Positions 6,855 through 9,355 of a stretch of DNA of 24,301 nucleotides are shown piece after piece. The stretch is from a virus, in UHGV virus genome UHGV-1420800. One strand, given 5' to 3'. The translations under genes were made by a program, and so were the position numbers. Numbering within the stretch: the stretch's first letter is position 1; each line of letters starts with the position of its first letter. Under the pieces are notes generated by a model that made no database searches, was not told the DNA's origin, and was given only the letters and a program-made list of their open reading frames with translations.

Positions 6855-7318
6855 GTAGAGTAACCGCGATTATCTCTGCTCTGGTTATCTGCATCATCAT
6901 CTGTCTGTCATGGGCTGTTAATCATTACCGTGATAACGCTATCGCCTACAAAGAGCAGCGCGATAACAAGGCCAGTGAACTGGAGAAGGCGAACGCCACC
7001 ATTACTGACATGCAGCAGCGCCAGCGTGATGCTGATGCACTCGATGCTAAATACACGAAGGAGTTAGCTGATGCGAAAGCTGAAAATGATGCTCTTCGGC
7101 GCAAGCTTGATAATGGTGGCAGGGTGCTCGTCAAAGGAAAATGCCCTGTGCCATCCTCAGACGAAACCTCCAGCGCCTCCGGCATGGGCAATGATGCCAC
7201 CGTCGAACTCTCTCCAGTTGCTGGACGAAACGTTCTCGGTGTCCGGGACGGAATTATCCGCGACCAAACAGCACTGAGAACGCTTCAGGAATACATCAGG
7301 ACGCAATGCCTTCGATGA
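6851..7318 (+). CDS. Rz: i-spanin Rz (inner-membrane subunit)
   Basis: N-terminal TMD ([18 protein letters not shown]), coiled-coil periplasmic domain, and an ATGA overlap with the R stop. The N-terminal ~83 aa are lambda-like and the C-terminal part differs. Confidence 0.9.
7071..7277 (+). CDS. Rz1: o-spanin Rz1 (outer-membrane lipoprotein), embedded in the +1 frame of Rz
   Basis: AAGGAG lies 7 nt upstream of ATG 7071. The signal peptide has the lipobox VAGC (Cys19) and the mature part is proline-rich (KPPAPPAW), as in lambda Rz1. Confidence 0.85.
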
Positions 7319-7452
7319 TAGCGATAATTCTACTCATCATCCTTCACATCTGGCTCTGTAGACAGGGTGGTGATCACTTCTGGAGTGAATCCAGATTAAA
7401 CATCTCATTGCTGATGCTTGAAGTTGAGCATCTGGCGCGCGGTAAGGGGCTG
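7315..7452 (+). CDS. 45-aa hypothetical small membrane protein ([19 protein letters not shown]...)
   Basis: ATG 7315 overlaps the Rz stop (ATGA). It has a hydrophobic N-terminal segment and is below the ORF-track cutoff. There is no other support. Confidence 0.25.
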
Positions 7453-7758
7453 CGTTGAGATAAGAGCCAGTTCATTACAAATCCTATCTACGGGTGGGCT
7501 TGATAATGAAACCGGAGTTAATTTCTGGTCACTAATTAACGGCAGTACAGCGAAACAACCCAAGCCAGTAAGCGGGGAAATAACACTGGCAGCCACTGAA
7601 AGATGAACCTCCTGCCTTATGGCAAAAAAGATTCTTTGTGGTGGCGGACTGATGGAAAGACATCGGATAGAATCAAGCAGTGGCTAGGGTAGTTCCCGAA
7701 AAGCGGACTCGTCACCGCCTGCCACTGAATCTATGGCGAACAACTAGACGAGGTTGTG

Positions 7759-7974
7759 ATGGATGATAACGGAAACCAATGGATCAATGTTGAACACCGG
7801 CTACCAGAAAGCAAAGAAGGGATGTGGTCTAAAGAGGTTATAGCTCTTACTGATACTGGTGACGTGTTCAAACTATCATGTATGGGCTCTTACTGGCAGA
7901 GAACCAAGGCATTCATCGATTCAGGAGCAAGCAAGGTTACACACTGGATGCCGCTTAATTACCCAGATGATTAA
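7759..7974 (+). CDS. DUF551-domain protein
   Basis: The sequence has the W.NVEHRLPE...VIALTD.G...W...VTHWMPL pattern typical of DUF551. ATG 7759 has GAGG 5 nt upstream. Confidence 0.8.
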   Translation: MDDNGNQWINVEHRLPESKEGMWSKEVIALTDTGDVFKLSCMGSYWQRTKAFIDSGASKVTHWMPLNYPDD

Positions 7975-7991
7975 AACGGATGAAAAATGAA

Positions 7992-8016
7992 AGGTCGCTC
8001 AGGCGGCCTTTTTTAT
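7992..8016 (+). terminator. Rho-independent terminator after the DUF551 gene
   Basis: AGGTCGC (7992-7998) pairs with GCGGCCT (8003-8009), giving 7 bp including one G-U pair. The loop is TCAG and TTTTTTATT follows. Confidence 0.75.
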
Positions 8017-8121
8017 TGCCATCACAAAAGCCATTCCCTACAGAGTGGCTTTGATAATGGCTTATACCCTACACGGGATAACTTAACTGATATCCCTTTT
8101 AACGGATAAACTGAGCCAACA

Positions 8122-8364
8122 ATGGCAGAGATTATTCCCATGACTGAAGAACAGAAATTCCAGTTAGAGATTTACAAGCTGGTCATGAACCAGAACGCAG
8201 CCGCAGAAGAAGCATTTCAATTCATTGGCACTGACGAACTGAAGCTTGAGCTATTCAAAATTCACTTCCAGTCAGGCGGCGCTAATTCAGATATCACGAC
8301 CCGCACTATCGAAGCGGTGCGTAAATCGAAGGAAGCGTTAGACCTGTTCACCACCGGAGTGTAA
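8122..8364 (+). CDS. Hypothetical acidic helical protein, 80 aa
   Basis: Clean ATG ORF, tightly packed with the next gene (3-nt gap). It may correspond to P22 'ORF80' by size and position; this is memory only. Confidence 0.6.
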   Translation: MAEIIPMTEEQKFQLEIYKLVMNQNAAAEEAFQFIGTDELKLELFKIHFQSGGANSDITTRTIEAVRKSKEALDLFTTGV

Positions 8365-8367
8365 GAG

Positions 8368-8655
8368 ATGACTGAACAAGAAATGCCGAGATACCAGTGC
8401 CACAAAAAAGTTCGCGCCCTGAAGATTGGCTCTATAGAACATAAGCCAAACCCAGATCAGTCTGGTAAGACTGGCTCTTCTAGTTATGGGGCAATTATTC
8501 ATCCGGATGATAAGAAATACGCAGCATTTGATGTTAGCGCGGAATATATCTGTAAGCACCGACCAATGTCTGGAGGCTATTACGTTGTCTATGAGGATGG
8601 ATATGAATCATATTCTCCTGCTGAGGTATTTGAGTCTGGATATTCAAAATTATAG
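8368..8655 (+). CDS. Hypothetical protein, 95 aa (YQCHKKV...GGYYVVYEDGYESYSPAEVFESGY)
   Basis: ATG ORF with a GGAG-containing upstream sequence. The C-terminal YEDGY.S.SPAE.FE.GY motif recurs in many phage proteins of unknown function. Confidence 0.65.
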   Translation: MTEQEMPRYQCHKKVRALKIGSIEHKPNPDQSGKTGSSSYGAIIHPDDKKYAAFDVSAEYICKHRPMSGGYYVVYEDGYESYSPAEVFESGYSKL

Positions 8656-8664
8656 GAACCCTCT

Positions 8665-8844
8665 ATGACAAGCGTCGTTGATCTTGGTAAGGAGAAGAAA
8701 TTCCCAATTACTCAAGAGCTATACGAGCGGCTTGAAAGCGTCATCCATGATTACGATGGTGAAATCAGTTTATGCGAGGCGATTGGCGCACTCGAATTGC
8801 TGAAGCAGTCACTGATTGAAGGCGCGAAAGAGTCCTTAACCTGA
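8665..8844 (+). CDS. Hypothetical acidic protein, 59 aa
   Basis: ATG 8665 to TGA 8842-8844, encoding MTSVVDLGKEKKFPITQELYERLESVIHDYDGEISLCEAIGALELLKQSLIEGAKESLT. It is below the ORF-track cutoff and fills the gap before terS. Its size and position resemble P22 'ORF59a'; this is memory only. Confidence 0.5.
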   Translation: MTSVVDLGKEKKFPITQELYERLESVIHDYDGEISLCEAIGALELLKQSLIEGAKESLT

Positions 8845-8866
8845 ATAACGATTAAGTGAGATGAAT

Positions 8867-9355
8867 ATGGCAGCACCAAAGGGCAACCGATTTTGGGAGG
8901 CCCGCAGTAGTCATGGGCGAAACCCTAAATTCGAATCGCCTGAGGCGCTGTGGGCTGCTTGTTGTGAATACTTCGAGTGGGTTGAAGCTAACCCGCTATG
9001 GGAGATGAAGGCGTTCTCGTATCAGGGTGAAGTGATACAAGAGCCTATCGCCAAGATGCGAGCGATGACCATTACCGGCCTCACTCTGTTCATTGATGTG
9101 ACGCTTGAAACATGGCGCACATATCGCCTGCGAGAAGATTTATCTGAAGTCGTTACGCGAGCAGAGCAGGTCATCTACGACCAGAAATTCTCTGGCGCAG
9201 CCGCTGACCTTCTCAACGCTAACATCATCGCCCGTGATTTGGGCCTCAAAGAGCAGTCGCAAGTTGAAGACGTGACACCTGATAAGGGAGATCGCGATAA
9301 GCGACGCTCTCGTATCAAGGAGCTATTCAACCGTGGAACTGGACGCGATTCTTGA
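8867..9355 (+). CDS. 3: Terminase small subunit (P22 gp3)
   Basis: 162 aa beginning [48 protein letters not shown], near-identical to P22 gp3 as I remember it. It contains the pac sequence. Confidence 0.93.
9134..9155 (+). promoter_or_regulatory. pac: P22-type pac site (packaging initiation recognition sequence) inside gene 3
   Basis: GAAGATTTATCTGAAGTCGTTA reads at 9134-9155. It matches the 22-bp P22 pac site as I recall it and is at the expected position within gene 3. Confidence 0.65.

What the first reader, a model, noticed from the sequence alone, without database searches (positions are those of the whole stretch)
8122..8844. Three tightly packed small proteins of unknown function lie immediately upstream of terS
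ORFs of 80 aa (acidic, helical), 95 aa (YQCHKK...YEDGYESYSPAEVFESGY) and 59 aa (acidic) are separated by only 3 and 9 nt and precede gene 3. Small acidic phage proteins in variable slots are often inhibitors of host functions (anti-restriction or anti-defence) or packaging modulators. P22 carries similarly sized unnamed ORFs here (I recall ORF80 and ORF59a), so the set may be conserved but uncharacterised. This is the best protein-level candidate region for something new in the window, but I have no positive functional evidence.
Basis: inference. Interest (0 to 1): 0.5.

Follow-up and report, generated by a model that had tools for sequence, protein, structure and literature searches.

The report
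Sponge-linked small gene before phage terS
Of three small genes packed before the DNA-packaging genes of a P22-like phage, two are known families of unknown function, and the third belongs to a huge unnamed family that is repeatedly fused to phage proteins that soak up bacterial immune signals, making it a testable candidate counter-defence gene.

Summary
ORFs of 80, 95 and 59 aa lie at 8122-8364, 8368-8655 and 8665-8844, separated by 3 and 9 nt, just upstream of terS.

- **ORF80** is Pfam DUF2560 (P22 ORF80, Sf6 gp67). It models as a four-helix protein with no informative fold match.
- **ORF59** is the P22 Orf59c / HK620 HkbN / Sf6 gp68 family, which is confined to Enterobacteriaceae.
- **ORF95** is absent from P22 and is the interesting gene.

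ORF95 has no Pfam or NCBIfam model, yet its profile finds 6071 clusters (50% identity).

It is the long form of the N-terminal domain of the Thoeris inhibitor RyR Tad (hhalign 98.3%). [quoted passage not shown]

ORF95 lacks Dec's C-terminal spike and its capsid-contact residues, so a decoration role is unlikely.

Among 145 representatives there are 17 fusions to four signal-sponge families: Sequestin, Acb4, Tad2 and Acb2/Tad1.

In sibling phages the same slot carries Acb4 (20 of 71 loci) or a Tad2 fusion (5 of 71).

My best reading is that ORF95 is a counter-defence module acting on nucleotide immune signalling. This is inferred, not shown.

ORF95 and ORF59 are in the same frame across a TAG, and rare natural variants fuse them.

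The parts
7756..7974 (+). DUF551 ORF (72 aa), a neighbouring accessory gene in the same variable slot
   Evidence: Pfam DUF551 at 9.8e-10. It is present in 7 of 71 sibling slots. DUF551 is fused to the ORF95-type domain in 2 of 145 family representatives.
7989..8018 (+). Intrinsic-terminator-like hairpin with a U-run, between the DUF551 ORF and ORF80
   Evidence: 10-bp stem, -15.6 kcal/mol, z = -2.88, and none of 200 shuffles folds as well. The simple consensus scan did not list it.
8122..8364 (+). ORF80, a DUF2560 family protein (P22 ORF80, Sf6 gp67, HK620 HkbM)
8368..8655 (+). ORF95, a stand-alone long-form member of the unnamed domain family that includes the RyR Tad N-terminal domain; a distant homolog of the Dec OB-fold
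8653..8655 (+). TAG stop of ORF95, in frame with ORF59 (three codons, GAA CCC TCT, lie between)
   Evidence: Translation. Natural variants carry TGG, GAG or CAG and encode 158-aa ORF95::ORF59 fusions. TAG is kept in 28 of 28 IMG/VR copies.
8665..8844 (+). ORF59, P22 Orf59c / HK620 HkbN / Sf6 gp68 family
   Evidence: phrog_3546 at 1.2e-40. DNA matches to P22 orf59c, HK620 hkbN and Sf6 gene 68 begin at window position 8686. 65 clusters, all Enterobacteriaceae and above 70% identity. Present in 36 of 71 sibling slots. No homology to Sequestin, Acb4 or Tad2.
8867..9355 (+). terS (gene 3), the downstream boundary of the slot
   Evidence: Pfam GP3_package at 3.6e-33 and phrog_606 terminase small subunit. 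About 97% identical to P22 gene 3 at the DNA level.

Best explanation
The three ORFs are real, independently assorting accessory genes. They sit in the hypervariable slot between the lysis cassette and terS of a P22-like phage, and in sibling phages that slot carries known inhibitors of bacterial nucleotide-signalling immunity.

ORF95 is a stand-alone, long-form copy of a very widespread beta-rich domain. The short form of this domain is the domain-swapped dimerising N-terminal domain of the Thoeris inhibitor RyR Tad. The domain is also fused again and again to the Sequestin, Acb4, Tad2 and Acb2/Tad1 sponges.

I propose that ORF95 is made late in infection and forms a homodimer or higher oligomer. 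I propose that it helps the phage evade signalling-based defence, either by binding a small (nucleotide-derived) ligand itself or by working with a sponge-type partner. It is evolutionarily related to the OB-fold of the Dec capsid decoration protein but does not work like Dec.

ORF80 (DUF2560) and ORF59 (Orf59c family) are conserved small helical acidic proteins of the same slot. Their activity remains undefined; I assume they are host-directed rather than structural.

Shown here: gene reality, family membership, homology links, fusion and neighbourhood statistics. Inferred: oligomerisation, ligand binding and the counter-defence role.
For: Family size and conservation: 6071 clusters at E <= 1e-3, with invariant or near-invariant Y9, C11, H12, K13, K63, H64, G70, Y71, Y72, Y75, D77, Y79, S81, P84, F88, E89 and Y92.

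Fusion partners among 145 representatives: crAss001_48 / PF21825 in 7, PF13876 in 4, Tad2-like in 4, Acb2_Tad1_hairpin in 2. PF21825 is Sequestin and PF13876 is Acb4 according to bioRxiv 10.1101/2025.07.12.664507 and PMC11722364. The first of these papers discovered Sequestin by exactly this fusion logic.

Same slot in sibling phages: an Acb4-family gene in 20 of 71 loci and a [short ORF95-type]-Tad2 fusion in 5 of 71. Sf6 gp66 is PF13876 at 3.6e-35.

Neighbourhood: a stand-alone homolog lies 10 nt upstream of an Acb2_Tad1_hairpin gene in an unrelated phage (L207). Homologs also occur in nin and replication regions, not only near head genes.
Against: There is no experimental activity for any stand-alone member. 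[quoted passage not shown] The domain may therefore be only a dimerisation scaffold.

ORF95 is near neutral (pI 6.4), whereas known sponge pockets are strongly positive. I could not model oligomers or pockets.

Only 17 of 145 representatives carry recognisable sponge domains, and most extensions are unannotated.

Long-form homologs often lie next to packaging or head genes, which would also fit a morphogenetic role.

Nothing links ORF80 or ORF59 to defence other than their position.
Confidence: 0.45

Rival explanations
1. ORF95 is a Dec-like capsid decoration (cement) protein that binds the mature capsid through its OB-fold, possibly oligomerised through ORF59.
Against: ORF95 ends where the Dec OB domain ends and has no C-terminal spike. 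Dec1-98 (OB domain only) cannot bind P22 virions (PMC11398494). The Dec contact residues K30, Y31, Y49, Y71 and E73 (PMC6449081) map to E24, H25, D55, D77 and Y79 in ORF95, so none is conserved. In Ralstonia phage GP4 the 3.7 A capsid contains only the MCP and an Ig-like cement protein, not the ORF95 homolog gp05. Homologs also occur in replication and nin modules. The short form shows no Dec signal.
Confidence: 0.1
2. The ORF95-type domain is only an oligomerisation or stability scaffold with no ligand of its own. Stand-alone copies such as ORF95 would be remnants, or would act by heterodimerising with (and so modulating) other proteins that carry the domain.
For: In RyR Tad the N-domain forms a domain-swapped dimer and is dispensable for Thoeris inhibition. 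The most conserved N-terminal motif (YQCHKxVxA) probably lies in the swapped beta1 strand; this is an inference.
Against: 56 of the top 150 representatives are stand-alone, and the family is under strong purifying selection with many conserved polar and aromatic residues. That is unexpected for a scaffold without cargo. This window encodes no second protein with the domain.
Confidence: 0.2
3. The three proteins modulate DNA packaging or late gene expression: partners of the small terminase, pac recognition, or regulation of the late operon.
For: They sit immediately upstream of terS in the late operon. ORF80 is nearly universal in this phage group (69 of 71). ORF95-type genes lie one or two genes before terS in several unrelated phages.
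Against: P22 packages without ORF95. ORF59 is missing from about half of the sibling phages that share the identical terS allele. ORF95-type genes accompany three different terS families (GP3_package, Sf6_terminase, Terminase_4) and also occur far from packaging genes. No DNA-binding or terminase-related fold was found.
Confidence: 0.1
4. ORF95 and ORF59 are two halves of one functional unit. Either low-level readthrough of the in-frame TAG yields a 158-aa two-domain protein alongside the 95-aa and 59-aa products, or the two proteins form a non-covalent complex. Either way this would mirror the [ORF95-type]-[small helical sponge] fusions seen elsewhere.
For: The two ORFs share a frame, with only TAG plus 3 codons between them. 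There were at least three independent stop-to-sense changes (TGG, GAG, CAG) in nearly identical DNA. ORF95 is always followed by ORF59 in this lineage (11 of 11). Many relatives carry a helical C-terminal domain of about 60 aa at that position.
Against: TAG is retained in 28 of 28 unselected copies. A shared frame has a prior of one in three. Stop-loss variants are about as frequent as variants at an average codon, so fusion is tolerated, not favoured. ORF59 has its own Shine-Dalgarno sequence (AGGA) and exists alone in P22. The phage Dewey homolog lacks ORF59. The co-occurrence may reflect one recent mosaic module. AF2 gave no confident ORF59 fold or interdomain contact.
Confidence: 0.1

Closest known systems
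N-terminal domain of RyR Tad (Pectobacterium phage vB_PatP_CB1 gp68; bioRxiv 10.64898/2026.06.04.730250)
   Same: It is homologous over the whole domain (hhalign 98.3%, E 1.6e-14) and shares the signature motifs YQ[CS]HKxVxA and GYxVVY...SxSPxxxFxxGY. [quoted passage not shown]
   Different: ORF95 is the long form, with an insertion of about 30 residues, and it is stand-alone with no RyR-like sponge domain. The gp68 N-domain alone showed no anti-Thoeris I activity. Neither the oligomeric state nor any activity of ORF95 is known.
Dec, the capsid decoration protein of phage L and related P22-like Salmonella phages (PDB 6e3c; PMC6449081)
   Different: ORF95 has no C-terminal three-stranded spike, which is essential for capsid binding (PMC11398494). 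None of Dec's five mapped capsid-contact residues is conserved. The Dec family is narrow (Salmonella P22-likes, mostly >= 93% identity), whereas the ORF95 family is very large.
Phage immune-signal sponges Sequestin (PF21825), Acb4 (PF13876), Tad2 (PF11195) and Acb2/Tad1 (PF24729)
   Same: They are short phage proteins, occur in the same variable slots, are frequent fusion partners of the ORF95-type domain, and in one case are an immediate neighbour.
   Different: ORF95 has no sequence or fold homology to any of them. No ligand binding, oligomer or charged pocket has been demonstrated for ORF95, and its net charge is near neutral.
P22 ORF80 (DUF2560) and P22 Orf59c / HK620 HkbN / Sf6 gp68
   Same: ORF80 and ORF59 are direct members of these families.
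   Different: Nothing substantive. The first 7 codons of ORF59 differ from P22 orf59c, because the mosaic junction lies at about window position 8686.

Membership tests
DUF2560 (P22 ORF80 family), for ORF80 | Full-length match to the Pfam PF10834 profile above the gathering score | tested here: met
   147.7 bits against a cut-off of 25, E 1.1e-43, profile positions 1-72 of 72. Matches P22 ORF80.
P22 Orf59c / HK620 HkbN / Sf6 gp68 (phrog_3546), for ORF59 | Full-length profile match, and position immediately upstream of terS | tested here: met
   phrog_3546 at 1.2e-40 over positions 1-59 of 59. DNA is 88-96% identical to P22 orf59c, HK620 hkbN and Sf6 gene 68.
Dec capsid decoration protein, for ORF95 | N-terminal OB-fold domain homologous to Dec residues 12-89 | tested here: met
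Dec capsid decoration protein, for ORF95 | C-terminal spike (residues about 99-134) that trimerises and is required for capsid binding | tested here: not met
   ORF95 ends at the residue aligned to Dec position about 91. The downstream ORF59 is helical and unrelated. Dec1-98 does not bind virions (PMC11398494).
Dec capsid decoration protein, for ORF95 | Capsid-contact residues K30, Y31, Y49, Y71 and E73 | tested here: not met
   Through the alignment these map to E24, H25, D55, D77 and Y79. The residues come from PMC6449081. The alignment is at 27% identity, so individual positions are uncertain.
Dec capsid decoration protein, for ORF95 | Binding to mature capsids at quasi-three-fold sites | not testable with these tools
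   This needs virion proteomics or binding assays. Indirect evidence: the GP4 homolog gp05 is absent from the solved capsid.
RyR Tad N-terminal-domain family (unnamed; the 'ORF95-type domain'), for ORF95 | Profile-level homology across the domain, including both signature motifs | tested here: met
   hmmsearch against CB1 gp68 gave E 1.3e-7 and 1.1e-9 in the 5-sequence search. hhalign 98.3%, E 1.6e-14.
RyR Tad N-terminal-domain family (unnamed; the 'ORF95-type domain'), for ORF95 | Domain-swapped homodimer (beta1 exchanged between protomers) | not testable with these tools
   Only monomer prediction was available. The feature is described in bioRxiv 10.64898/2026.06.04.730250.
Nucleotide-signal sponge proteins (functional class), for ORF95 | Homology to a characterised sponge family (Tad1, Tad2, Acb2, Acb4, Sequestin, Lockin, TadIV-1) | tested here: not met
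Nucleotide-signal sponge proteins (functional class), for ORF95 | Short phage protein found fused to known sponges (the criterion used to discover Sequestin) | tested here: met
   17 sponge-domain fusions among 145 representatives, plus RyR Tad and Tad2 fusions in the same slot.
Nucleotide-signal sponge proteins (functional class), for ORF95 | Homo-oligomer with positively charged inter-protomer pockets, and sequestration of an immune signal | not testable with these tools
   No multimer modelling or biochemistry was available. The pI of 6.4 and the inactive gp68_N are mildly unfavourable.

The most novel reading that the evidence does not exclude
The ORF95-type domain (at least 6000 clusters at 50% identity, no Pfam model) is itself a new, very widespread family of phage immune-signal binders. 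Its stand-alone members, such as ORF95, would neutralise a signalling defence whose messenger is not covered by the Thoeris I assay that gp68_N failed. The Dec decoration protein would then be an exaptation of this counter-defence fold, made by adding a tail-fibre-like spike in the same genomic slot.
Probability: 0.25. Interest if true: 0.8.

Novelty: new variant of a known kind. Interest (0 to 1): 0.58.

Why it matters
If ORF95-type proteins act on immune signalling, a family comparable in size to or larger than Acb4 (about 1,300 members) or Lockin (about 900) has been overlooked. It is present in well-studied P22-like phages and in E. coli prophages (49 of 5426 complete genomes carry this exact module).

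The lysis-terS slot of P22-like phages would then be recognised as a counter-defence island, alongside the Acb4 and Tad2 genes found there.

The analysis also gives an evolutionary origin for Dec's "novel OB-fold", which has had no known relatives. It flags database annotations of ORF95 homologs as "capsid decoration protein" as probably unwarranted.

All of this can be tested directly, because a cultured BASEL-collection phage (Bas106) carries the same ORF95-ORF59 module at 98% identity.

Tried and rejected
1. **ORF59 or ORF80 as divergent Sequestin, Acb4 or Tad2.** hhalign probabilities were below 1%. Rejected.
2. **ORF59 related to ORF80.** hhalign gave no signal.
3. **C-terminal extensions of longer ORF95 homologs as ORF59 homologs.** Only a weak BLAST hit to P0036 (E 0.013). 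The extensions turned out to be Sequestin, Acb4, Tad2 and others.
4. **158-aa fusions as gene-calling artefacts of alternative genetic codes.** Rejected, because the DNA carries real TGG, GAG or CAG codons.
5. **A suppressor tRNA in the window.** None found.
6. **GP4 cement protein as the ORF95 homolog.** Rejected: the cement protein is gp1 (Ig-like), while the homolog is gp05.
7. **ORF95 as Lockin or TadIV-1.** Not supported.
8. **ORF80 fold search.** Only diffuse helical matches.
9. **BFVD fold search with the ORF95::ORF59 model.** Only uncharacterised proteins.
10. **NCBIfam.** No hits.
11. **Literature on DUF2560, orf59c and hkbN.** Nothing functional.
12. **Promoter scan.** No excess of sigma-70-like sites around the cluster, consistent with read-through late transcription.
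13. **AF2 for ORF59.** As part of the fusion model it was low confidence (pLDDT 29-69), so no fold inference was made.

Full report
**Observation**

The window is a P22-like (Lederbergvirus-type) phage segment. Its gene order is holin, endolysin, Rz, a short variable region, terS (gene 3), terL, portal.

terS follows; by homology to P22 gp3 its start is 8867.

ORF80 and ORF59 are acidic (pI 4.7 and 4.5), while ORF95 is near neutral (pI 6.4).

All three match conserved families and evolve under purifying selection, so they are genes, not chance ORFs.

A strong hairpin with a U-run (7989-8018, -15.6 kcal/mol) separates the upstream DUF551 ORF from ORF80. No excess of promoter-like sites is present, which fits read-through late transcription.

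**Identity and assortment**

ORF80 is Pfam DUF2560 (1e-43). It corresponds to P22 ORF80, Sf6 gp67 and HK620 HkbM.

ORF59 is phrog_3546 and corresponds to P22 Orf59c, HK620 HkbN and Sf6 gp68. Homology to P22 begins at about codon 8 of ORF59.

ORF95 is not in P22. In the phage collection the ORF95+ORF59 module is found at 98% identity only in Escherichia phage CurroJimenez_Bas106, which lacks ORF80. A 69%-identical homolog follows an ORF80-like gene in phage Dewey, which lacks ORF59.

The three genes are therefore independent mosaic modules.

In 71 IMG/VR loci anchored on the same terS allele, the counts are:
- ORF80 in 69
- ORF59 in 36
- ORF95 in 11, always in the order ORF80 > ORF95 > ORF59

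Of 5426 complete E. coli genomes, 49 carry the full ORF95+ORF59 module and 159 match at least part of the query, mostly the ORF59 portion only.

**ORF95: family and fold**

ORF95 has no Pfam or NCBIfam hit. It nevertheless has 444 close clusters.

With a profile, the numbers rise to 6071 clusters at 50% identity with E <= 1e-3, of which 3657 have E <= 1e-10.

The family has two strongly conserved motifs, MPxYxCHKxVxALKI and KHxPxxGGYYVVYxDGYxSxSPAxxFExGY, flanking a variable loop.

An AF2 model built on the natural fusion P0002 gives a beta-rich domain for the ORF95 part, with pLDDT about 80-87.

A profile-profile comparison of the ORF95 family with three Dec-like sequences gives 85.6% probability (E 5.6e-6). 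It aligns ORF95 residues 5-95 with Dec residues 9-91, which is the whole OB domain.

Sequence-only tests are weak but consistent: PDB profile search E 0.28, pairwise BLASTP E 0.004, and Dec against phrog_11049 E 0.044.

Synteny agrees as well. In UPF_BP1 and many Salmonella P22-likes the order is DUF2560 > dec > terS, with the same tight spacing.

The Dec family is itself narrow, and its C-terminal part resembles tail-fibre repeats. I conclude that Dec's OB-fold is a distant relative of the long-form ORF95 family. This is homology at moderate confidence.

**ORF95 is unlikely to work like Dec**

- ORF95 stops where the OB domain stops. Dec1-98, which lacks the spike, cannot bind P22 virions (PMC11398494).
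- Dec's mapped contact residues K30, Y31, Y49, Y71 and E73 (PMC6449081) align to E24, H25, D55, D77 and Y79 in ORF95.
- Ralstonia phage GP4 has a 50%-identical homolog (gp05). Its 3.7 A capsid contains only the MCP and an Ig-like cement protein, gp1.
- Homologs also occur in replication and nin modules.

**Link to immune-signal sponges**

Among the top 150 representatives, 56 are stand-alone, 65 have a C-terminal extension of at least 30 aa, and 29 have an N-terminal one.

A Pfam scan of 145 representatives found these partners:

| Partner | Members |
|---|---|
| crAss001_48 (PF21825) | 7 |
| Phage_gp49_66 (PF13876) | 4 |
| Tad2-like (PF11195) | 4 |
| Acb2_Tad1_hairpin (PF24729) | 2 |
| DUF551 | 2 |

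A few other families occurred once each.

According to Tal et al. (bioRxiv 10.1101/2025.07.12.664507) and PMC11722364, PF21825 is Sequestin and PF13876 is Acb4. Sequestin was discovered precisely because it is fused to Tad2 and Acb4.

Their supplementary table contains a Sequestin homolog with an N-terminal YQCHKRVHA...GYLVVY...SWSPKAVFDEGY domain. I found no discussion of that domain in the passages I read.

A 2026 preprint (10.64898/2026.06.04.730250) describes RyR Tad (CB1 gp68). [quoted passage not shown] It forms a domain-swapped dimer, and on its own it has no anti-Thoeris I activity.

I fetched gp68 and found that its N-domain matches the ORF95 HMM. Together with two other short N-domains, it aligns to the ORF95 family at 98.3% probability (E 1.6e-14). 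ORF95 carries an insertion of about 30 residues relative to these.

**The slot as a counter-defence locus**

Sf6 gp66, immediately upstream of the Sf6 homologs of ORF80 and ORF59, is an Acb4-family protein (3.6e-35).

In the 71 terS-anchored loci, an Acb4-family gene occupies the slot in 20. A [short ORF95-type]-Tad2 fusion (Tad2-like at 3.7e-21) occupies it in 5.

Contexts in other phages:
- Stand-alone ORF95-type genes lie between the lysis genes and terS in a Pectobacterium P22-like phage and in a Morganella HK97-type phage.
- They lie one or two genes before terS in two metagenomic phages, one of which has an Acb4-family gene about 5 kb upstream.
- One lies in a nin region.
- One lies 10 nt upstream of a 75-aa Acb2_Tad1_hairpin gene in the replication module of an unrelated phage.

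**ORF80 and ORF59**

Both families are confined to Enterobacteriaceae and are shallow.

Neither shows homology to Sequestin, Acb4 or Tad2, or to the other. No literature on them was found.

ORF80's near-universality (69 of 71) contrasts with the variable presence of its neighbours. Its function remains open.

**In-frame amber**

ORF95 and ORF59 share a reading frame, with TAG plus GAA-CCC-TCT between them.

Five 158-aa proteins in the large protein collection are ORF95::ORF59 fusions with E, Q or W at the stop position. The DNA of five contigs confirms GAG, CAG and TGG in otherwise nearly identical sequence.

The stop is nevertheless retained in 28 of 28 unselected IMG/VR copies. The fusions were ascertained by length. 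Their frequency, against about 275 distinct 95-aa variants, is roughly that of an average codon.

I read this as fusion being tolerated, which would fit the two proteins acting in the same place. It is not evidence for programmed readthrough.

A single ORF80::ORF59 fusion (P0209) also exists.

**Mechanism and rivals**

My best-supported reading (confidence about 0.45) is that ORF95 is a late-expressed, oligomerising counter-defence module aimed at nucleotide-signalling immunity. It would be either a ligand binder in its own right or a partner of sponge-type proteins.

The main caveat is that the only tested relative (gp68_N) was inactive against type I Thoeris.

The rivals are:
- a pure dimerisation scaffold (0.2)
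- Dec-like decoration (0.1)
- packaging or late-regulation modulators (0.1)
- an ORF95-ORF59 functional unit with or without readthrough (0.1), which is not exclusive of the main reading

**Novelty**

ORF80 and ORF59 are already-catalogued families of unknown function.

ORF95 belongs to a large family that has no database model. It has been noted in the literature only in passing, in its short form.

As far as the searched literature shows, three things are new here: the link to Dec's OB-fold, the breadth of the sponge fusions, and the view of the P22-like lysis-terS slot as a counter-defence locus.

The counter-defence function itself is an inference that remains to be tested.

Noticed in passing
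window 8653-8664 (TAG plus GAA CCC TCT); loci L004-L008: ORF95 and ORF59 are in the same frame. Natural variants replace the TAG with TGG, GAG or CAG and encode 158-aa fusions, while 28 of 28 IMG/VR copies keep the TAG.
   Followed up: yes
P0209 (140 aa; from the ORF80 homolog search): A single natural ORF80::ORF59 fusion protein exists (...EALDLLLPEHDVSRVINLGKEKKFPITQ...). It is probably a frameshift or deletion in a P22-type arrangement without ORF95.
   Followed up: no
window 7756-7974 and 7989-8018: A DUF551 ORF followed by a strong terminator-like hairpin lies just upstream of ORF80. DUF551 is fused to the ORF95-type domain in 2 of 145 family representatives, so it may belong to the same functional neighbourhood.
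   Followed up: partly
L120 (Sf6) 1752-2132; 20 of 71 terS-anchored loci L125-L204: Sf6 gene 66 and its relatives in the lysis-terS slot are Acb4-family (PF13876) proteins, that is, members of an anti-CBASS sponge family sitting next to the homologs of ORF80 and ORF59.
   Followed up: yes
L204, 1060 to 581 nt upstream of terS (and 4 similar loci): A 159-aa protein in the same slot is a fusion of a short ORF95-type domain with a Tad2-like domain (PF11195, 3.7e-21).
   Followed up: yes
L207 5001-5522: In an unrelated phage (DNA polymerase A and primase-polymerase module), a stand-alone ORF95 homolog lies 10 nt upstream of a 75-aa Acb2_Tad1_hairpin gene.
   Followed up: partly
L114 1319-1986: An ORF59 homolog (55 aa) overlaps the start of a divergent Dec-like gene (166 aa). 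That gene's C-terminus differs from the Dec spike and ends in a helical-looking segment (...TAVNTIVTKVNSLITKLK).
   Followed up: no
L003 (phage Dewey) 3293-3781; records KR296686-KR296688; several MK9726xx and KU9274xx records: Probable misannotations. The Dewey terS is labelled 'peptidase HslV family protein'. Features labelled 'site-specific recombinase' or 'putative holin' lie under the terS region in phages 22, 25 and 34. Dec is labelled 'tail fibers protein' in several records.
   Followed up: no
MT711888 (Pseudomonas phage Dolphis) 71750-71983; PV565041 (Jeremy); OR820515 (Ralstonia phage AhaGv): ORF95 homologs are annotated as 'capsid decoration protein' or 'head-tail adaptor'. Given the missing spike and the GP4 capsid structure, these names are probably over-interpretations of the Dec similarity.
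   Followed up: partly
window 7306-7458: A 50-aa ORF overlapping the end of Rz is conserved: 39 of 71 sibling loci, annotated as Bas106_0068, and it occupies the position of Sf6 gene 65. It has no family hit.
   Followed up: partly
P0091 and P0103 (ORF95 family members): Some family members carry a Cys-rich insertion (CxGS...C..C..C) in the variable loop, which suggests a zinc-ribbon-like elaboration of the domain.
   Followed up: no
window 8861-8869: the ORF listing starts terS at the ATG at 8861 (MNMAAPK...), but P22 gp3 and its homologs start at [11 protein letters not shown], that is, at 8867. The annotated length should be 162 aa.
   Followed up: partly
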